Part shown: piece by piece, positions 56,263-64,000 of the stretch | Position numbering within the stretch: the stretch's first letter is position 1 | Layout: each line of letters starts with the position of its first letter | From: Giardia intestinalis | Lineage: Eukaryota | NCBI GenBank assembly: GCA_000002435.2 | Contig: CM018791.1 | DNA length: 64,000 bases | Direction: 5' to 3' (one strand) | The notes under the pieces: model-generated | Told to the model about the DNA's origin: nothing | Database searches by the model: none | Seen by the model: only the letters and a program-made list of their open reading frames with translations | Translations under genes and position numbers: made by a program

Positions 56263-56955
56263 ATGAGCAGGCAACTTGGGGATTTACTCGAAAACATAAA
56301 GGCGGCAGTATTCGACTTTGACGGGACTCTGGTCGATTCGCATAAGATATGGGCAAAAATAGATCAGGATCTTTTCGATCAACTGGGTCTAGTACAGCCC
56401 CCGAACTACGAAAAGGACATTGCTGGAAAGCGTCTACCAGAGATAGCTAAGTATATTATTGAGCACTTCCAGTTGACGAATGTGAGCCAGGAGAGAATTC
56501 TGAGCTGCTGGGAGGAAAGCTATATGAAGTACTTTTCCAGCTCAGCACAATTCATAGATGGCGCTGCCGAGTTTCTTACGTACTTGGCATCCAAAAACAT
56601 TGCCATCGGGATTGCCACTGCTTCCACACACAAACTAGTAGAGCTGTTTTTCTCCAACCATCCTGAAATACGTGCACTGATAAGTTGCGTAGTCACATCA
56701 GAAGACGTTGTGCACTCTAAGCCAGCTCCAGATGTTTTCCTGAAGTGTCTAGAGAGCCTAGGTGCTCATCCCAGCGAGGGGATCATTTTTGAAGACTCTC
56801 TTGTGGGTCTTTCTGCAGCTACCAAGACAGGAAGCAAGGTGGTTTGTATTCTTTCCCACCCTGATGACCATTTAGAAAAGAAAGAGCTGAGCCAGTTGCA
56901 AATTAACTCTTATTCTGAGTATCTGTATCAATCTCGTACACTGGAGGAAAGCTGA
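56263..56955 (+). CDS. HAD-superfamily hydrolase (subfamily IA, beta-phosphoglucomutase/phosphatase-like)
   Basis: The track start at 56251 is TTG, and the first ATG is at 56263. Motif I is AAVFDFDGTLVDS (DxDGT). Motif II-III-like residues are present, and the metal-binding region is IFEDSLVGLSAATKTGSKVV. 230 aa. Confidence 0.8.
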   Translation: MSRQLGDLLENIKAAVFDFDGTLVDSHKIWAKIDQDLFDQLGLVQPPNYEKDIAGKRLPEIAKYIIEHFQLTNVSQERILSCWEESYMKYFSSSAQFIDGAAEFLTYLASKNIAIGIATASTHKLVELFFSNHPEIRALISCVVTSEDVVHSKPAPDVFLKCLESLGAHPSEGIIFEDSLVGLSAATKTGSKVVCILSHPDDHLEKKELSQLQINSYSEYLYQSRTLEES

Positions 56956-57121
56956 AGCAATCTTCTGGGCAAATCTGCATACACTGTAAGCATTGGAAAC
57001 ACTTGTGAGGGTCACGGAGAGAGATCTTGTTATTCTGGATGACGAGAATAGATAATGGGCAGGCTTGTACACACTGACCACAAAGGGTGCATGCATCAAC
57101 ATCCAAGATAATCCGCTGCAT
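56903..57121 (-). CDS. 2[4Fe-4S] ferredoxin (clostridial-type, two CxxCxxCxxxCP motifs)
   Basis: 72 aa with a verified ATG at 57121..57119. The sequence MQRIILDVDACTLCGQCVQACPLSILVIQNNKISLRDPHKCFQCLQCMQICPEDCF contains two canonical C-x2-C-x2-C-x3-C-P cluster-binding motifs 19 residues apart. An AT-rich block (aaatttaaaagaaaaag in gene sense) lies just upstream of the ATG. The 3' end overlaps the convergent HAD gene by 53 nt. Confidence 0.7.
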   Translation of the reverse strand: MQRIILDVDACTLCGQCVQACPLSILVIQNNKISLRDPHKCFQCLQCMQICPEDCFSFPPVYEIDTDTQNKS

Positions 57122-57747
57122 AGTTCACAGAAAGAATTGGCTTTTTCTTTTAAATTTCTGGGAGCTGGTTTGTCAGCTGTTGTTCGAGTAAACTTATCAG
57201 GCAAGTCGTCGTGCTGAGTGGGATTCTCTCTCAGTCCATCTATCCAAAGTTCAAAATTCAAATTTCATCCAGTTTTGGGAAGAGGAGGAGCTAGTTGGCT
57301 CGTGAGCATGTCGATAGAGACGACTCGAAGCGGGATCCGGCAGACACTTGGCGGGATGATGGTACTGCAGGCGAAGAGAGCCCTCGCGCTCGCCACCCCA
57401 ATCGATCTCCCTACTAAAGAGCAAGCATGTGGCTGACTCCTAAAACGGCTGCCGCTATCACTGAACCCTCTCCCCAGCTGGGCTAGTCGTCAAATGGGAA
57501 GTGGCTCATGAACGCATCACCTCGCCTTTGGGGGCCCGATTCACCTCTACTGTATCGTCCATGGCGCTAAGATTTATGGAAGACACGCCTGCTCCAACAT
57601 CCCCAGGACGCTGAGAGAGATCAGAAGGCCTTCCAAGTCCTCTGGAGGCGTTTAGATGCAACTCCTAGCTCTTGCTCTCGGGAGACCTCGATAGGGATCA
57701 GCAACCAACACGTAGACTGCGACCTATGTAATCAAGACCTGGAACAG

Positions 57748-58167
57748 ATGGCCTTCGTTATCGACAAGACAAGAACAGGTGATGGAGCTCCGTTCTCCCC
57801 GGATCCTGTGCTCCAGAGGAGGCAGGGCTTCCAGTCACTGACTGCCCCGACAGGAGTCATGCGTCTGCTGATGCTTTGTGAGGACCGCATGGACTCCGAC
57901 TCGTGCCTATACACTGTGGATGCTGTGGGTCTCTCGAGGGAGATGCTCCGACGCCATAACAAGAACAGAAGCCTCAGGTGCACATGTGAGAGCTTGACAC
58001 GGGATATAGAGCTGATTCAGGCCTCATCTAAGAACCTGGGGGCGTTTCACACGCTGGAGGATACCAGGATTGGGGGAATCCCCATCGTCTGTTGCCCCAA
58101 ATGCTTCAGCACCAGAATGGCGAGTAGGAGACATCTGGCTAAAACGAAACACTCTGTGCTGATGTGA
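57748..58167 (+). CDS. Possible small hypothetical protein (139 aa) with C-terminal Cys/His cluster; may be part of a decayed element
   Basis: ATG at 57748. The protein-like composition ends in IVCCPKCFSTRMASRRHLAKTKH. It lies at the edge of the GC-rich island and is followed by frame-hopping ORFs. No AT-rich initiator upstream. Low confidence. Confidence 0.2.
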   Translation: MAFVIDKTRTGDGAPFSPDPVLQRRQGFQSLTAPTGVMRLLMLCEDRMDSDSCLYTVDAVGLSREMLRRHNKNRSLRCTCESLTRDIELIQASSKNLGAFHTLEDTRIGGIPIVCCPKCFSTRMASRRHLAKTKHSVLM

Positions 58168-58379
58168 CACCAGATGACAATCACTCAAGCATGAACAGGA
58201 CGAGCATCTGCCCGCTCTGTACAAAACCCACTGGAGCCAGAGCTATCCGAATGTACTGTGGCACAGACAGCAAGTGCAGGGTGCTACTGCGCGAAAGGAT
58301 GGAGATGGCAGAGGAGATGCACCTCGTCACACTACGGGCCACTACATGGGCAACACCCACCAGAAGGTTCCGAACAAGA

Positions 58380-59880
58380 ATAGGCCACCGAGCGCATGAA
58401 GGACCCCCTGGCGAAGAGCAGCTGCCGCCCCATGGGGCTCCTCTCCCACGGGCCCCCTCGACCCGGACTCCTCAGAGGGGATCAGGGTAGCGTACGAGCT
58501 GCACCCTGGAGGGACACGAGCCCCCTGTCCTACAGCCAGCGGAGAGCACGGGCATCTCTCCCAAGGTCACTGACGACGAGATGACCCGGGGGTCCGTCCA
58601 TGGGCTCTCGAGGTCTCCTGGACCTTACCTGGACCTGCGTACTGGGGGTCCTCATCCCCAAGAACGAGGCAAGCATAACCTGTGGAGCGACCACGACGGC
58701 CCTTTACAGATACTACCGGGCCATCTGAAGTCCCAGGCGCTGGACACTGGGGCTTGCATGCACGTGTAGTGTGCGCTCGTATGTGCACACGAGACTGAGG
58801 AAGCCAGGCGGTCTTGCTCGACTCCAAGGCGCCCTCAACAGCAGCCCCGGTCCTGCACAGTCTCGGCCAGGAGAACGCGCCCCTCGCCCTGAGGAGCTAC
58901 ACGTGGCCTTCCTCTGGCTACAGCACACATGGACTCGGTCCCGTGCAGTGTTCCTCAGGGACCCTCTAGGTATGTTCCTATGCTGCGCTGGACGGAGCGC
59001 GCTCACTAAACAGCTGAAGGAGATGCCCCCTCAGTGCCTACGCCGACGGCGTACTGATCCTTCACGACGACAACAACGAGGTAATGAGGTTGACAAACCC
59101 ACGGACTGACGATCAACACAGACAACTCAAGAGCACCGAGGGGGCAGGAGGCTCCTTCCTGGGTGTCCGGTCTCGAGGAGCGGCTACCCACGGCCTCCAA
59201 GGAGATAGAGAGGGCAACGAAAAGGTTGCAACTGTGTCAATCGCCCACCACCCCGAGCCGAGCTGGTCTGGACAGACTCACCACGCGACCCCTACGGATC
59301 CCTCGGGGGGCAGGCAGAGCCCTCTGGGATGCTCGGCTCGAACAACAGCAGACCGAGCTCCTGGCTACGCAGGACAGCGGCGGTCGGGAGTCCACCACAA
59401 GCAGCTGCGCGGTGCTTGACACCTCGACGTGAGACGTGGCATCACAGCAGGCTGCCGAGCGGGACGGCCTCGTGGTGAGCAACGCATCGTACATGAACTG
59501 TGCTCTGATCGCTCCAATACTTCAGATAACGCCTCTCGGAGAGCTGTGACCGGGCCAGCCTCTCCGGCTGAACGACTCATGGCTCCACGTACACTCTGCG
59601 GCACGGATGGGTGCAGACCACACCAGCCGAGCCGGCACACTGCACAGGGTGTGGACCTGCGAGTGTGTACTGGCTGCTGACCACCTGGCACCACAGGTGC
59701 ACTGCGGTCCATGAACAGAAGGGCGGGCCGGGCGTTTCCTCCGCGCCAACCAGGGGTCGATATGGAGGCTACGGGTACACGCTACAGTCCAGGAGGACGC
59801 ATGGCGAGCGCACCCCGACAACAGGATCGATGGTCCACTCCACGAGGAGGCGAGAAGGAACCCGAGTCGGCATCCCGGGA
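58380..59880. other. GC-rich (about 60-70% GC) compositional island without a coherent ORF; all six frames are open in short overlapping pieces
   Basis: Counted GC per 60-nt block is 57-70% between 58380 and 59880, against about 45-52% in flanking and coding DNA. Ten or more 60-200-aa ORFs overlap in all frames and are Arg/Pro/Ser/Cys-rich. It lies in a 3.1-kb stretch (57122..60245) with no convincing gene. Confidence 0.6.
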
Positions 59881-60245
59881 TTATAATACATGCGATCTTC
59901 GTTATGGAGCGCCAGCACCGAGTGGCCCTGGGTTGTACGGCCGGGAGCACTATTCCTAAGGTCAGATAGCAGCTGATCCAAGGGGACTGAGTGAGAGAAG
60001 CGAAAAACCTAGATCGATATCGTGAGAGACGGGACGGTGACTTGCAAAGCGAAGAACTATGATATTTCCCCTTTTCTGCCAGAGCTGGACAGTGTCCGAA
60101 TTTCCGATTCCAAATGCTGGACACACTGAGCGAGGATGCCGTTCAACATAGTGACTCGTACGATGGACTTACTCAGACTGCGGCCAGCAAACCAACTTCT
60201 TTTTGAAGAGAAACGACAGATTTATTCATGAGACTACAGAGCAGT

Positions 60246-60875
60246 CTATTGGTCATTGCAACCATTGACACTAGGTGTACTGCCCCTAAGGAGAGACGCT
60301 ATCTCGAGGTATCCCCTAGAAGTAATCTTGTCAAAGAAATATTCATTAGACTTGTCTATCAGATGCCCCTCTTTTTCTAATAGAAGCTTTACCACTTCTA
60401 AGTGGCCCTTTAGCGCTCTATGTTCAAGAGCAGTCATCTCATTCCTATCCTTTACACCCCCCTCCAGATCTACTAACAATCTTGCTATTTCCACGTTCCC
60501 CATAGAAGCCGCGTTCATAAGCGCAGTCATACCTACCATGTTTTGTGCACCACTGTCGTATCTTATTACCAACTTTGCTGTCTCTATGCAACCGTGTGTG
60601 GCTGCTCGCATAAGCCTCGTGTCGCCGAATGTATCGGTTGGCTCAAGAATAATCACAATAATTTTGTGCCCTGCCTCCTTAGCAATCATCAGGGCCATCT
60701 TGCCTTCGCTGTCGATTAAGTTCTCCTCATATGGAATCAAAATGGAAGCAGCTTCTGCGCTGCCTTTTTCTACAGCGATCATCAGAGCAGTACGGCTGTT
60801 CTTGTTTCTTCTCCCACATTCGTAAGGGGCAAGAATTTCAACTACATCAGAGTAGTTGCTGTGTGCGGCGTGCAT
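60246..60875 (-). CDS. Ankyrin-repeat segment (Protein 21.1-like); probably the C-terminal part of the upstream NEK-like gene rather than an independent gene
   Basis: The track start at 60929 is TTG, and the first ATG (60875) lies inside a repeat (TALMHAAHS). It is in the same frame as 60984..62135, separated only by TGA at 60984..60986 plus 18 sense codons. Repeats include GWTALMHAAHSNYSDVVEILAPYE and GKMALMIAKEAGHKIIVIILEP. There is no AT-rich promoter-like sequence upstream. Confidence 0.5.
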   Translation of the reverse strand: MHAAHSNYSDVVEILAPYECGRRNKNSRTALMIAVEKGSAEAASILIPYEENLIDSEGKMALMIAKEAGHKIIVIILEPTDTFGDTRLMRAATHGCIETAKLVIRYDSGAQNMVGMTALMNAASMGNVEIARLLVDLEGGVKDRNEMTALEHRALKGHLEVVKLLLEKEGHLIDKSNEYFFDKITSRGYLEIASLLRGSTPSVNGCNDQ

Positions 60876-60983
60876 GAGTGCAGTCCAGCCGTTCTTGTCC
60901 TGGAGGCCCCTCTCCTCCCCAACAAGCAACTCGACGGGACTGATGCGCCCCTGCTCGTCGCGCTGACCAACACCAAGTCTTCT

Positions 60984-62135
60984 TCAAGCAGCATCCGGAC
61001 GGTCTCCATGCCGTTCGTATGCGCAGCACGCATCAGCCCGGGCAGCAAAAAGAGGCTGGACGAGGCCAGCCGTGCATTCTGTGGACTGTGCAAGCCTATT
61101 CTCCAGTGCCTTAATCATAGCTAGATGTTCCTTACTTTGATCTTCAAGCGCGTCGATCTTAGTGGATTTAGTCTTAACATCCTCTTCCAGCAGCGCGATC
61201 CTGGCGTTAGCGCCATTCAGCGCAGCCTCCAAGGATCCGCACTTGTACTTCAGCATCACGCACTGACCCCCCAGCTCACCAACTGGGATGTCAGCCGCAG
61301 TGAGTGTCTCATGCAGCTCACTGGCTGTCGGCCTCCTCTCTGGCTCCAATACAAAGATCCTCTCCAGAACATTCTGTATGAAGCCATCAGTGACACCGCT
61401 CAGGTCCGGCCTCCACTCATCGACGAAGACCTCTGCTGGCTCCTTACCTTTCAGGAAGTCCGGTTTCCTTAGAGTGGCCATCTCGTAGACGATGACCCCG
61501 AGGCTCCACACGTCAGAGGCGGGGCTGGGCTCGTTGTGGAGGAGCACCTCGGGGGCCATGTACGCTGCCATGCCTGCAATGGTGCTCTCACTCCACAGGG
61601 CGTCCTTGCAGAGTTCGAGGCCAGCGATGATGAAGTACTCACCATCTACACTGACGAGGGTACTGGCAGGCCTGAGGTCGCAGTGGACGAGGCCTCTAGT
61701 GTTTGCCCCACTGAGGCCGTGGAGGTAGGCGAGGGCGGCGGCGACCTGCTTCATGACAGAGAGGATCATAGTGATAGGGACGGGGATCCTCCCTCGTTTG
61801 TGCTTGGCGAGGGGGCGCTCGAGGGTACTGTCGTGGTGGTCCGTGACGATGTAAATGAAGTCATCATCCTCGACCACTTGGTAGTGCCTGAGGACCCCCG
61901 GGTGGGAGAGGTCGAGAAGGGCGGTCAATCTTGTCTTGATGGCGTCCAGATCCCCCTTGTCCAGACCATCGAGGAGGATCTCCTTCACGGCGAGGTCTGG
62001 AAAATCCCTGAGAGAGTAGAGTGTGCTTGTGGGGTCTTTGGCCAGCACGTCATCCAGCCCCTCGTGGAGCTCCCTAGGGGTGAACGGTGGGACACTGAGA
62101 GCCACCGTTGCAGACCCAGACGAAGCAGTGTGCAT
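60984..62135 (-). CDS. NEK-like pseudokinase with C-terminal coiled coil; terminated by an in-frame TGA that is co-frame with the downstream ankyrin ORF
   Basis: 383 aa with a verified ATG. Has the VAIK lysine (LAVKEIL) and the APE region (MAPEVLLHNEPSPASDVWSLGVIVYEM). The catalytic loop is degenerate (VHCDLRPASTLV), and the DFG position reads IAGLELCKD. The coiled coil is LEAALNGANARIALLEEDVKTKSTKIDALEDQSKEHLAMIKALENRLAQ. Confidence 0.75.
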   Translation of the reverse strand: MHTASSGSATVALSVPPFTPRELHEGLDDVLAKDPTSTLYSLRDFPDLAVKEILLDGLDKGDLDAIKTRLTALLDLSHPGVLRHYQVVEDDDFIYIVTDHHDSTLERPLAKHKRGRIPVPITMILSVMKQVAAALAYLHGLSGANTRGLVHCDLRPASTLVSVDGEYFIIAGLELCKDALWSESTIAGMAAYMAPEVLLHNEPSPASDVWSLGVIVYEMATLRKPDFLKGKEPAEVFVDEWRPDLSGVTDGFIQNVLERIFVLEPERRPTASELHETLTAADIPVGELGGQCVMLKYKCGSLEAALNGANARIALLEEDVKTKSTKIDALEDQSKEHLAMIKALENRLAQSTECTAGLVQPLFAARADACCAYERHGDRPDAA

Positions 62136-62441
62136 CCTGGTATTATTTTGGTAATCTACCGTTTTGGAAACGGTCCGTTTTACATGGGTTCATATCTACA
62201 GGTCTACAGCGGTCCTGTATCTGTGGGGGCTTCTGTATCAGGAGCGAGAAGACCACCCGTGCGACCGTTTTACCCACCGGTGTCCTAGCGCTGGCTGGGG
62301 GCAAGAAAGCCTGCTCTCTTCTGGCCTCTGTGGAAACGGGTGGCTGTGTGCCCCACTGACAGCCATCACTTCACCCTATTGGCTAGCCGTCCCCCTGCAC
62401 AGCTGGAGAGGCCCTAGTACATTATCGAATGCGATCAACAG

Positions 62442-63116
62442 TTAGGCGAGTTCACTCATGGGCTTTCTGGGTGGCATCCGTAGCTGGGGCTCCTTCAGTC
62501 CAACGCCTTCACTCTCAAGAAAAGATACTATCTCGGAATGCTTCCAAATACTGGCCACGGAAAGAGCAGACATACCGCCTACATTCTTTTCCCTCTTCAG
62601 CAGTAACTTGACACAGTCTAGACGACCATAGCATGCTGCAAATGAGAGGGCAGTGCAGCCACGACACTTTTCCATGCAGCCCTCAACCTCCAGGAGTAGC
62701 CTCACGACCTCGGTGCGACCGTTTGCTGCCGCCCACATGAGGGCCGTCAGCTCGGTACTGCTTTTCATACCATTCTCGTGCTCCATTAACAGCCTCACAG
62801 CCTCAACGTGTCCAAGCACTGCAGCGACCATCAGGGCCGTCCCCCCGTGTATATCTACCATCCCTGCCTTGACAAGCTTTGCCACTTTTCCTGCCTGATA
62901 AGGAATGTAGCGCTCTACCGCATCCACGTCATTTCGTTTGGCCGCCTCCATGAGCTCGGTGACACCGTCCTCATCCTCGTCCTCATCAGTTACCTGCGGA
63001 GACCTAGTGGGACTGCTCTCGCCCACATCCTCATCATCTGTGTCCTTTTCAAGCATGAGGGGTGAGGTGTCGTCGTGCTCCTGAGAGTAATGATCTGAGT
63101 CATCCGCAGACGACAT
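62442..63116 (-). CDS. Ankyrin-repeat protein with acidic N-terminus (Protein 21.1-like)
   Basis: 224 aa with a verified ATG. An acidic N-terminal 60 aa (DDSDHYSQEHDDTSPLMLEKDTDDEDV ... DEDEDEDGVTELMEAA) is followed by five ankyrin repeats (GGTALMVAAVLGHVEAVRLLMEHENG, ELTALMWAAANGRTEVVRLLLEVEG, GCTALSFAACYGRLDCVKLLLKRE). Confidence 0.8.
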   Translation of the reverse strand: MSSADDSDHYSQEHDDTSPLMLEKDTDDEDVGESSPTRSPQVTDEDEDEDGVTELMEAAKRNDVDAVERYIPYQAGKVAKLVKAGMVDIHGGTALMVAAVLGHVEAVRLLMEHENGMKSSTELTALMWAAANGRTEVVRLLLEVEGCMEKCRGCTALSFAACYGRLDCVKLLLKREKNVGGMSALSVASIWKHSEIVSFLESEGVGLKEPQLRMPPRKPMSELA

Positions 63117-64000
63117 TTTTTATTTCCTATATCACAAAGGAAATACGTGTAACAGAAACTTGCGATTCACGGTATTATTTACAAATCATCCAGATAGCAT
63201 ATTTGCAGGCGAACTGATGATTTACTTCACCCATTGGGTACTTCCAGCTCTGACCGCGGTATCTGTTCGTGAGCGCGGTCCGGAGGTCTCCTAGGCAAAC
63301 CGCGCTCGATTCCTGGTAATCCCTAGAGATGAAGGTCGGCCGTGGGTAAGATAATTAGGAGCTTCCCTCTATTAATATAAAAGGACGATCAGAGACCAAT
63401 GCAGCTGCCTGCATCGGCACCTCCGCGTCTCTGGAGGCTCAGCCAGGGCCAGGGATCAGGCACAGCCACCCAGCGACCAGAGCGGAGGTCGAACATCTGG
63501 TCCGCCGAAAAGTGCGAAATGCTAGCGGGGCGTTGTCCAGTCACCAGATGGACTACCCAAGGGGAAGGCCAAGAACCGTCTCGAGATCCCCTATCTGAGC
63601 CCTGCATCGTTCGGGGAGTGAGGCGAGCCCGACGAGACCGGCCAAAGCGCCGCTTCCTGTCAGTGTGCTCCTAGCTTGGGACGGATCCGCAGGGCCATGA
63701 CAGCCCGTGAGCGTAGGAGGCTACCAGCGGGGCCAGAGAACTGTCCAGTTATACTGCAACACAGACATCGAGTGTAGAGCGTAACTGCGTAAAGGGATGG
63801 GAATGAAAAGAAGAAGGACCTTTTCTTCAGCACTCATCGTGCAAGCATGTTCAGGAATGATACCCACCTGCTCGCGTCCTGAGGCTTAGTTGCTGGTCAA
63901 CCCTGGCCACTGACTGTGCTTCACTAGCCCATAAGGAACATGAGGCGGTATGCAGCATCGTCGTAACCCTGCTCGATAGACTCGGAGTCGGATACTAGGC

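What the first reader, a model, noticed from the sequence alone, without database searches (positions are those of the whole stretch)
60246..62135. NEK kinase / coiled-coil / ankyrin gene interrupted by a single in-frame TGA, with an ankyrin repeat readable in the +1 frame across the junction
The kinase ORF (60984..62135) and the ankyrin ORF (60246..60929) are in exactly the same frame. Only TGA at 60984..60986 separates them, followed by 18 sense codons (RRLGVGQRDEQGRISPVE) that run straight into LLVGEERGLQDKNGWTALM. In addition, the +1 frame across 60960..61045 (track ORF 60842..61093) reads a textbook repeat GLMRAAHTNGMETVRMLLEED while the kinase frame reads PLFAARADACCAYERHGDRPDAA*. Kinase plus coiled coil plus ankyrin is the standard architecture of this family. 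The locus therefore looks like one gene carrying a premature stop plus a local frameshift patch. Possible explanations are a recent pseudogene, programmed stop-codon readthrough, or sequencing or assembly errors in a repeat. The ankyrin part has no ATG until inside a repeat and no AT-rich promoter, which argues against an independent gene.
Basis: seen in the sequence. Interest (0 to 1): 0.65.

Follow-up and report, generated by a model that had tools for sequence, protein, structure and literature searches.

The report
Known broken Giardia NEK kinase gene
This is one Giardia NEK kinase/ankyrin gene (GL50803_114495) broken by small deletions, already catalogued in 2011 as an expressed pseudogene of a gene family known for constant duplication and decay, so it is ordinary.

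Summary
The kinase ORF (60984..62135, minus strand) and the ankyrin ORF (60246..60929) share a frame and are separated only by TGA 60984-60986. A textbook ankyrin repeat is readable in the +1 frame across the junction.

The window is Giardia intestinalis WB (assemblage A). The locus is GL50803_114495, subfamily Nek-GL4, which Manning et al. 2011 already list as a pseudogene merged from several ORF models and expressed.

Alignment with intact paralog junctions shows that the TGA is not a nonsense mutation. It sits at the end of a 33-codon (about 100 nt) out-of-frame stretch between a cluster of small deletions (net -8 nt, 61062-61085) and a 1-nt deletion (about 60981). Together these remove 9 nt and restore the frame.

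The 2007 reference protein has the 1-nt deletion but not the -8 cluster. The gene is therefore really broken, but the -8 patch may be an assembly error or a lab-line difference.

An in-frame 33-nt deletion nearby is shared with paralogs and is a subfamily variant. The kinase lacks the DFG aspartate, so it is catalytically dead. Its promoter is intact and, according to published work, Myb2-regulated and induced during encystation.

Nothing supports readthrough or programmed frameshifting. Interest is low.

The parts
62136..62215 (-). Promoter region of the NEK gene. It has an AT-rich stretch directly upstream of the ATG (62% A+T over 60 nt). Two CTGTAG motifs, the reverse complement of the Myb2 site C(T/A)ACAG, start at 62209 and 62201, which is 74 and 66 nt upstream of the ATG.
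   Evidence: Sequence scan. GL50803_114495 is reported as a ChIP-seq/knockout target of the encystation factor Myb2, with a binding site in its upstream region (PMC9547401).
60984..62135 (-). Upstream ORF of 383 codons plus TGA. It holds the protein kinase domain (residues 48-275, roughly 61311-61994) followed by a heptad-like linker (to about 61086). The last 33 codons (STECTAG...RPDAA) are out-of-frame junk. Catalytic motifs: LAVK lysine present, HCD aspartate present, DFG replaced by AGL, so a dead kinase.
   Evidence: The first 350 residues are identical to XP_001709905.1, 'Kinase, NEK', Giardia lamblia ATCC 50803. DFG versus AGL is seen in alignment A2.
61062..61085 (-). The '-8 patch'. 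Clustered small deletions (4 + 2 + 1 + 1 nt) and a substitution, relative to intact paralog junctions and to the 2007 reference protein (FGDRMNTAGPQ). It moves the reading frame from the kinase frame into the +1 frame.
   Evidence: DNA alignments with the DH paralogs L005 and L006. P0001 matches the window everywhere except this tract, apart from one R/G residue just downstream.
60980..61060 (-). First TALM-type ankyrin repeat (SSLFLLPGLMRAAHTNGMETVRMLLEE). It is readable only in the +1 frame relative to the kinase ORF.
   Evidence: It matches 26 of 27 residues of GL50803_137743 (P0005) and of P0001.
60984..60986 (-). The TGA that ends the kinase-frame ORF. It lies inside the out-of-frame patch, immediately next to the 1-nt deletion that restores the frame.
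60980..60982 (-). Site of the 1-nt deletion: GAAGAAAGAC in paralogs, GAAGAAGAC here. This is the lesion that separates the first ankyrin repeat from the rest. It is also present in the 2007 reference, whose tail DLVLVSATSRGAS...TTLM is the window's +1 frame.
60955..60956 (-). Junction of an in-frame 33-nt deletion that removes QGMTALMHAAQ. In the undeleted paralogs the missing segment lies between two near-identical copies of AGCAGGGG. The deletion is shared with several paralogs, so it is a subfamily variant and not a lesion of this locus.
   Evidence: 'RDEQGRISPVE' also occurs in P0011, P0014 and P0113.
60246..60983 (-). The 3' part of the ancestral gene. It is back in the kinase frame: 245 open codons, about 6-7 TALM-type ankyrin repeats, the conserved C-terminal tail (LEVVKLLLEKEGHLIDKS...EIASLLRGS), and a TAG stop at 60246-60248. 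There is no ATG before 60875 and no AT-rich initiator.
60221..60226 (-). AATAAA within CATGAATAAATC, about 20 nt after the TAG of the ankyrin part. No AGTRAAY-type Giardia poly(A) motif is present anywhere between 62400 and 60000 on this strand, so none follows the TGA at 60984. Assigning this element as a poly(A) signal is an inference.
   Evidence: Motif scan. Not tested experimentally.

Best explanation
The window is Giardia intestinalis WB (assemblage A). The locus is GL50803_114495, a member of the fast-turnover Nek-GL4 subfamily.

It descends from a single gene of about 640 codons: an N-terminal, catalytically dead kinase domain, a coiled-coil-like linker, an array of TALM-type ankyrin repeats, and a conserved C-terminal tail.

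Small deletions at the linker/ankyrin boundary broke the reading frame.
- A 1-nt deletion (GAAGAAAGAC to GAAGAAGAC, about 60981) is present both here and in the 2007 reference.
- In this window a cluster of deletions totalling 8 nt (61062-61085) lies about 80-100 nt upstream.
- Together they remove 9 nt, so the kinase frame and the ankyrin frame coincide again.
- The 33 codons between them are read out of frame and end in TGA just before the frame is restored. That is why the two ORFs look as if 'only a TGA' separates them.

The promoter is intact and, according to the literature, is switched on by Myb2 during encystation. The locus is therefore transcribed.

Translation from the first AUG should give only a truncated dead-kinase/linker protein: 383 aa in this sequence, 433 aa in the 2007 version. 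The ankyrin part has no promoter or start codon of its own and is most likely untranslated 3' sequence. It has not yet accumulated stops, which points to a recent break.

Shown: gene identity, colinearity, the positions of the lesions, the dead catalytic motif, and published expression.
Inferred: which lesion came first, that the ankyrin part is not translated, and that the truncated product has little or no function.
For: 1. Identity. The first 350 residues equal XP_001709905.1, 'Kinase, NEK', of Giardia lamblia ATCC 50803. The same N-terminal sequence appears in Manning et al. 2011 Table S1 under GL50803_114495 / GK118, Nek-GL4, 'Pseudogene', 'multiple GiardiaDB' models, 7 ankyrin repeats. 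The neighbours are KAE8302924, KAE8302925 and KAE8302927 on the 1.97-Mb WB chromosome.

2. One ancestral gene. The repaired 630-aa product aligns end to end with the intact paralogs P0008 (671 aa), P0024 (638 aa) and P0022 (648 aa), including the C-terminal tail.

3. Lesions. DNA alignments with the intact junctions of the DH paralogs L005 and L006 show -4, -2, -1 and -1 nt at 61062-61085 and -1 nt at about 60981.

4. The 1-nt deletion is supported by a separately built reference. The tail of P0001 is the window's +1 frame for 71 residues with one mismatch.

5. Family context. GL4 has 32 members plus 29 pseudogenes in WB, described as 'rampant gene duplication and pseudogenization' (PMC3218828). 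Many retrieved paralogs stop or shift frame at the same boundary.

6. Expression. SAGE lists 114495_mod as a differentially expressed pseudogene. It is a Myb2 target and encystation-induced. CTGTAG motifs and an AT-rich initiator lie upstream of the ATG at 62135, and nothing comparable lies upstream of the ankyrin part.

7. Dead kinase. AGL replaces DFG.
Against: - The ankyrin frame is still open for 245 codons (P about 5e-7 by chance). This is what a recent break would leave, but continued translation would also give it.
- The -8 patch is absent from the 2007 reference protein. Part of what is seen in this window may therefore be an assembly or consensus error, or a difference between laboratory lines.
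- No independent read-level data and no syntenic ortholog from another isolate could be retrieved.
- 'Pseudogene' may overstate the case for the upstream half. A regulated transcript encoding an intact 350-residue dead-kinase/linker protein could still act as a scaffold, as many kinase-only GL4 members may.
Confidence: 0.85

Rival explanations
1. Assembly or consensus artefact. The locus lies in a multi-copy region where polishing is unreliable. Some or all of the frame-breaking indels would be errors, and the real gene would be less damaged than it looks, or intact.
For: - The 2007 reference protein P0001 differs from the window only in the 61062-61085 tract, plus one R/G residue just downstream. 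There it reads FGDRMNTAGPQ, exactly as the intact paralog GL50803_137743 does.
- All the differences in that tract except one substitution are small deletions packed into 24 nt of otherwise identical sequence. That pattern suits long-read consensus errors.
- The authors of the PacBio WB assembly report frame-shifts from PacBio errors, corrected only where at least 10 Illumina reads gave at least 50% support (PMC7000408).
- Short-read (Logan) contigs break at 57349 and at 62336/62403, which suggests that the region between is repeated in the genome.
Against: - The 1-nt deletion at about 60981 is present in both the window and the 2007 Sanger-based protein. The gene is therefore broken even if the -8 patch is an error.
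- Manning et al. classed the locus as a pseudogene on the 2007 sequence.
- The rest of the window carries long intact ORFs of up to 1752 aa, so the assembly is not generally rich in indels.
- I could not establish which assembly the window comes from.
Confidence: 0.4
2. Recoding. The full-length kinase-ankyrin protein would still be made, either by readthrough of TGA 60984-60986 or by two ribosomal frameshifts (+1 near 61085, -1 near 60981).
For: - The two ORFs share a frame with a single stop between them, and the downstream frame is fully open.
- A 2026 preprint reports that transcripts spanning adjacent 'split' genes in another metamonad, Trichomonas vaginalis, are read through stop codons.
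Against: - Readthrough would put 33 junk residues in place of the first ankyrin repeat. Over this patch the conserved sequence lies in the other frame (26 of 27 residues match the paralog).
- Neither lesion is seen in any paralog examined.
- GAAGAAG is not an X XXY YYZ slippery heptamer, and the upstream lesion is four separate deletions rather than a shift site (by inspection).
- The literature search turned up no report of natural readthrough or cellular frameshifting in Giardia.
Confidence: 0.03
3. Two working genes produced by fission: a kinase-dead NEK of kinase plus linker only, and a separate ankyrin-repeat protein (Protein 21.1 / ARP-1 type) expressed on its own.
For: - Kinase-only GL4 proteins of 340-430 aa are annotated in several isolates, and Giardia has hundreds of ankyrin-only proteins.
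- In DH the paralogous loci L004, L006 and L007 are also annotated as a kinase gene followed by an ankyrin gene.
- The upstream half has a regulated promoter.
Against: - The ankyrin part has no ATG until 60875, inside a TALM motif, and the 60 nt upstream are only 38% A+T with no initiator-like sequence.
- No database holds a protein model for it in any of the start variants tried.
- Manning et al. merged the pieces as one pseudogene.
- The split loci in DH come from a 454 assembly (my own knowledge of that project) and may themselves be errors or pseudogenes.
Confidence: 0.08

Closest known systems
GL50803_114495 (GK118), Nek-GL4 pseudogene of Giardia lamblia WB (Manning et al. 2011, Genome Biol 12:R66, Table S1 and Table 3)
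   Same: It is the same locus. The N-terminal sequence, the translated upstream leader and the kinase domain are identical. It is classed there as a pseudogene assembled from several GiardiaDB ORFs, with 7 ankyrin repeats, and expressed by SAGE.
   Different: The window carries an extra cluster of deletions (-8 nt, 61062-61085) that is not reflected in the 2007 RefSeq protein XP_001709905.1. As a result the annotated 433-aa model becomes a 383-aa ORF, and the downstream ankyrin frame coincides with the kinase frame.
GL50803_137743 (GK106; P0005; KAE8302957.1 / KAE8302961.1), Nek-GL4, 'dead Nek missing K72, D184'
   Same: It is the closest paralog, on the same 1.97-Mb chromosome. It is 92% identical over 287 aligned residues of the kinase and linker. 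It has the same AGL in place of DFG, and the same first ankyrin repeat.
   Different: Its linker/ankyrin junction is intact (FGDRMNTAGPQ...MLLEERLGVGQRDAQGMTALMHAGQQGH). It lacks the 33-nt deletion, it is truncated at its N-terminus, and its ankyrin tail is only about 54% identical.
Full-length GL4-type Nek kinases (P0008/P0021 at 671 aa, P0024 at 638 aa, P0022 at 648 aa)
   Same: The order of parts is the same: kinase, coiled-coil-like linker, TALM ankyrin array, and a conserved C-terminal tail. The repaired window product is colinear with them throughout.
   Different: They have uninterrupted ORFs. Some keep DFG (P0008). Their linkers are longer by 30-60 residues, and two have one more ankyrin unit.
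'Split genes' of Trichomonas vaginalis proposed to be expressed by stop-codon readthrough (bioRxiv 10.64898/2026.08.31.748405)
   Same: Both are adjacent ORFs that together match one protein, in a metamonad with large repeated gene families.
   Different: Here the interruption is a frameshift patch, not a clean stop. Conservation over the patch lies in the other frame. No transcript or protein evidence for a fused product is known for this locus.

Membership tests
Giardia Nek kinases, subfamily GL4 | An N-terminal protein kinase domain whose closest relatives are GL4 members. | tested here: met
   Pfam PF00069, E = 1.9e-25. The best hits are all Giardia 'Kinase, NEK' proteins. It is 92% identical to GL50803_137743, which Manning Table S1 labels Nek-GL4. 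The locus itself is listed there as Nek-GL4.
Giardia Nek kinases, subfamily GL4 | A C-terminal array of TALM-type ankyrin repeats. This is typical of the family but not obligatory. | tested here: met
   Ank_2, E = 3.8e-38. The motifs WTALM, RTALM, KMALM, MTALM and MTALE are present. The array is colinear with those of the paralogs. It is not in one ORF with the kinase.
Catalytically active protein kinase | Presence of K72 (VAIK), D166 (HRD) and D184 (DFG). | tested here: not met
   LAVK and HCD are present, but DFG is replaced by AGL, where P0008 has ADFGLC. The catalytic-loop Asn is also changed (DLRPAS). This fits the 71% of Giardia Neks that lack a key residue.
Pseudogene (disabled copy of a protein-coding gene) | A frame disruption relative to intact homologs that prevents synthesis of the ancestral full-length product. 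| tested here: met
   Deletions of -8 nt and -1 nt relative to intact junctions. The -1 is also present in the 2007 reference protein.
Pseudogene (disabled copy of a protein-coding gene) | Loss of function or relaxed selection on the remaining parts. | not testable with these tools
   No syntenic ortholog or population data could be retrieved. The upstream ORF is transcribed and regulated, so a residual function of the truncated product cannot be excluded.
Programmed stop-codon readthrough | A stop codon conserved among relatives, with protein-like conservation continuing in the same frame on both sides. | tested here: not met
   Upstream of the TGA, conservation lies in the +1 frame (26 of 27 residues). 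No paralog has a stop here.
Programmed ribosomal frameshifting | A slippery site at the shift point, conserved among relatives. | tested here: not met
   The -1 site is CTT GAA GAA GAC, which has no X XXY YYZ pattern. The upstream shift is made of four separate deletions. Paralogs are in frame.

The most novel reading that the evidence does not exclude
The ankyrin half is still translated from the Myb2-driven transcript by some form of recoding or re-initiation, as has been proposed for split genes in Trichomonas. Giardia's many 'broken' GL4 Neks would then be a pool of conditionally expressed two-part proteins rather than dead genes. The only support is the fully open 245-codon downstream frame and the regulated transcription of the locus.
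Probability: 0.03. Interest if true: 0.6.

Novelty: already known. Interest (0 to 1): 0.1.

Why it matters
It matters little beyond annotation.

- The locus is a textbook example of the duplication-and-decay turnover already described for the Giardia Nek-GL4 subfamily.
- The 383-aa kinase ORF and the 227-aa ankyrin ORF should not be annotated as two genes, nor as a readthrough candidate.
- The 24-nt tract 61062-61085 differs between this sequence and the 2007 reference protein. It should be checked against reads before it is used in variant or pseudogene counts.
- GL50803_114495 is used in the literature as an encystation-induced Myb2 target called 'NEK kinase'. Users should know that its product can at most be a truncated, catalytically dead kinase without its ankyrin targeting domain.

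Tried and rejected
**Exact-product look-ups** for the kinase ORF, the ankyrin ORF (227, 209 and 178 aa start variants), the +1-frame ORF and P0001.
- None is on record, so no independent contig across the junction was obtained.
- Proteins of the chromosome-scale WB assembly (P0003, P0005) are also not retrievable through the position index. These negatives therefore say nothing about that assembly.

**Neighbour-gene look-ups**. Short-read contigs stop at 57349 and at 62336/62403, so they do not reach the gene.

**A chimeric query of 14 ORF translations from 57.3-62.4 kb**, meant to find any called product in the region. It returned nothing. The positive control P0001, which shares 64 consecutive residues with the query, was not recovered either, so this negative cannot be interpreted.

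**Homolog search with the ankyrin part**.
- The best listed hit was 52% identical.
- Comparably similar proteins retrieved earlier (P0008 and P0021, 58% by my own alignment) were not listed. The word-index search is therefore incomplete.
- The statement 'no close database match' rests mainly on the exact look-ups.

**Two exact-pattern scans of metagenome contigs** with junction-specific and ankyrin-specific 29-30-mers found nothing.

**Search for a syntenic ortholog.**
- The DH loci L004, L005, L006 and L007, and the ENA contig L008, are all paralogous. They are about 80% identical in DNA, and L006 and L007 have different neighbouring genes.

**Manning Table S1.** The stored cell is truncated before the junction, so I could not see how those authors bridged it.

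**Region 56900-62500.** Rfam found no RNA family. Pfam on ORFs of the GC-rich 57.3-60.2 kb region found nothing.

**Rejected: the 33-nt deletion as a lesion of this locus.** It is shared with L006, P0011, P0014 and P0113.
Full report
**1. Observation**

The finding is accurate at the stated coordinates.
- On the minus strand, an ATG-initiated ORF of 383 codons (60984..62135) ends in TGA at 60984-60986.
- The same frame continues with RRLGVGQRDEQGRISPVE into the ORF listed at 60246..60929. That frame is open for 245 codons, down to TAG at 60246-60248.
- The +1 frame (ORF 60842..61093) reads SSLFLLPGLMRAAHTNGMETVRMLLEED over the stretch where the kinase frame reads ...PLFAARADACCAYERHGDRPDAA*.
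- Pfam finds a protein kinase domain in the upstream ORF (E = 1.9e-25) and ankyrin repeats in the downstream part (Ank_2, E = 3.8e-38).
- The open downstream frame is far beyond chance. P is about 5e-7, none of 20000 shuffles stayed open, and the other two frames carry 27 and 16 stops.

**2. What and where it is**

- All strong homologs are Giardia 'Kinase, NEK' proteins.
- The first 350 residues are identical to XP_001709905.1 of Giardia lamblia ATCC 50803 (P0001).
- The flanking genes are exactly KAE8302924.1 (GL50803_0017606), KAE8302925.1 (beta-phosphoglucomutase) and KAE8302927.1 (ankyrin repeat protein 1). All three lie on the 1.97-Mb chromosome of the WB reference.
- The same N-terminal sequence, including the translated upstream leader, appears in Table S1 of Manning et al. 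2011 (PMC3218828). The entry is GL50803_114495 / GK118, family Nek, subfamily GL4, status 'Pseudogene', 'multiple GiardiaDB' models merged, 7 ankyrin repeats.

The finding is therefore a rediscovery of a catalogued pseudogene.

**3. Anatomy of the break**

I aligned the junction with two paralogous loci from isolate DH whose junctions are intact (L005 and L006). The alignments show three things.

a) Between 61085 and 61062 the window lacks 4 + 2 + 1 + 1 = 8 nt and has a substitution. The paralogs, and P0001, encode FGDRMNT(A/G... )PQ there. This moves reading from the kinase frame into the +1 frame, where the first ankyrin repeat is perfectly preserved. It matches 26 of 27 residues of the paralog GL50803_137743 (P0005).

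b) At about 60981 one A is missing (GAAGAAAGAC becomes GAAGAAGAC). This moves the true frame back. The two lesions remove 9 nt in total, so the kinase ORF and the ankyrin ORF are 'in exactly the same frame'. The 33 codons between them are junk when read in that frame, and they end in TGA just before the frame is restored. The 'single in-frame TGA' is thus a by-product of a frameshift patch, not a nonsense mutation.

c) At 60955/60956 there is an in-frame 33-nt deletion. In the undeleted paralogs the missing segment lies between two near-identical copies of AGCAGGGG, and it removes QGMTALMHAAQ. The same deletion is present in the DH paralog L006 and in proteins P0011, P0014 and P0113. It is an inherited subfamily variant, not a lesion of this locus.

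After repairing (a) and (b), the 630-residue product is colinear from the first residue to the C-terminal tail with the intact 638-671 aa paralogs. The two ORFs are therefore halves of one ancestral gene.

**4. Is the damage real?**

The 2007 reference protein P0001 equals the window's kinase frame for 350 residues. It then equals the window's +1 frame for its last 71 residues, with one mismatch. It differs essentially only in the tract of lesion (a), where it reads like the intact paralogs.

- The 1-nt deletion (b) and the 33-nt deletion are therefore corroborated by a separately built reference. The gene is broken in either version: 433 aa in 2007, 383 aa here.
- Lesion (a) is unconfirmed. 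Four small deletions packed into 24 nt of otherwise identical sequence, in a region where short-read contigs break (57349 and 62336/62403), could be a long-read consensus error.
- The authors of the PacBio WB assembly report such frame-shifts and corrected only those with sufficient Illumina support (PMC7000408). Lesion (a) could also be a genuine difference between laboratory lines.
- I could not obtain reads or an independent contig across the junction. I estimate about a 40% chance that the patch is not real. That would not change the verdict on the gene.

**5. How it most likely works**

- The kinase domain lacks the DFG aspartate (AGL where P0008 has DFG). It was already a 'dead Nek' of the scaffold type, like 71% of Giardia Neks.
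- The promoter is intact. The 60 nt upstream of the ATG at 62135 are 62% A+T, and two CTGTAG motifs (the Myb2 site on the other strand) lie 66 and 74 nt upstream.
- Published work lists GL50803_114495 as a Myb2 ChIP-seq/knockout target (PMC9547401), as induced in encystation (PMC9094438), and as a differentially expressed pseudogene by SAGE.
- The locus is thus transcribed. Translation should yield a truncated dead-kinase/linker protein.
- The ankyrin part has no ATG before 60875, which lies inside a TALM motif. Its upstream 60 nt are 38% A+T. No Giardia-type poly(A) motif follows the TGA, whereas an AATAAA follows the TAG at 60246.
- The simplest inference is that the ankyrin part rides along as untranslated 3' sequence, and that the break is recent enough that no stop has arisen there yet.
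- Manning et al. showed for another Nek (15409) that deleting its ankyrin repeats altered its subcellular distribution. If the same holds here (my inference), losing the repeats should at least mislocalise any remaining product.

**6. Rivals**

- *Readthrough or double frameshifting.* This is disfavoured. Conservation over the patch lies in the other frame, no paralog has a stop or shift there, and there is no slippery heptamer. The search found no report of such recoding for Giardia genes. The nearest precedent is a 2026 preprint on Trichomonas split genes.
- *Two independent functional genes.* This is disfavoured by the lack of a start codon or promoter for the ankyrin part, and by the absence of any database model for it. 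A residual scaffold role for the truncated kinase half cannot be excluded.

**7. Comparison and novelty**

The locus is a member of Nek-GL4 by sequence and by published classification. It is not an active kinase, it meets the structural definition of a pseudogene, and it fails the tests for programmed recoding. It is already known.

The only new detail is the -8 tract that separates this sequence from the 2007 protein, together with the explanation of why the two ORFs share a frame.

Interest is low (0.1). The most novel reading not excluded is that the ankyrin half is still translated by recoding. I put that at about 3%.

Noticed in passing
window 57349-60200: There is an ORF-poor stretch between the beta-phosphoglucomutase gene and the NEK pseudogene. 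G+C rises to 0.62 at 58200-60000, and short overlapping ORFs occur in all frames. The ORFs tested gave no credible Pfam domain (only two weak zinc-finger matches far below Pfam's cut-offs), and no Rfam family was found. A short-read contig from an independent run ends exactly at 57349. The WB annotation has only one protein (KAE8302926, not identified here) between this gene's two neighbours. It may be decayed multi-copy sequence.
   Followed up: partly
proteins P0002, P0003, P0004, P0009, P0011, P0013, P0014, P0015, P0025, P0026 (paralogs); window equivalent 60870-61040: Many GL4 paralogs in several isolates end or shift frame within the first one or two ankyrin repeats. Examples are ...LMRAAHK*, ...LMRAAQE*, a frameshift right after LMRAAH, a stop after METVQMLL, and a stop after GWTT/GWTN. 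The linker/ankyrin boundary looks like a recurrent breakpoint. Alternatively, a broken version may have been spread by duplication or gene conversion. Some of these models come from 454 assemblies.
   Followed up: partly
window 60633-63198 versus L005 1854-4456 and L004 1545-3204: The DH paralogous loci align at about 80% identity from inside the upstream 224-aa ankyrin gene (62442..63116) through the NEK gene. The duplicated unit therefore seems to be [small ankyrin protein + NEK], not the NEK alone.
   Followed up: partly
P0005 = GL50803_137743 (same 1.97-Mb chromosome, outside the window): The closest paralog carries two GenBank accessions in each annotation (KAE8302957.1 and KAE8302961.1; XP_001709944.1 and XP_001709953.1), so there are two identical copies. 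Its kinase/linker part is 92% identical to this locus, while the ankyrin tails are only about 54% identical. This suggests gene conversion limited to the 5' two-thirds.
   Followed up: no
window 60955/60956: The in-frame 33-nt deletion lies where the undeleted paralogs carry two near-identical copies of AGCAGGGG. That is the signature of replication slippage between adjacent ankyrin repeat units. It is shared by a subset of GL4 paralogs.
   Followed up: yes
window 62196-62209: Two CTGTAG motifs sit 8 nt apart upstream of the NEK ATG. [quoted passage not shown]
   Followed up: no
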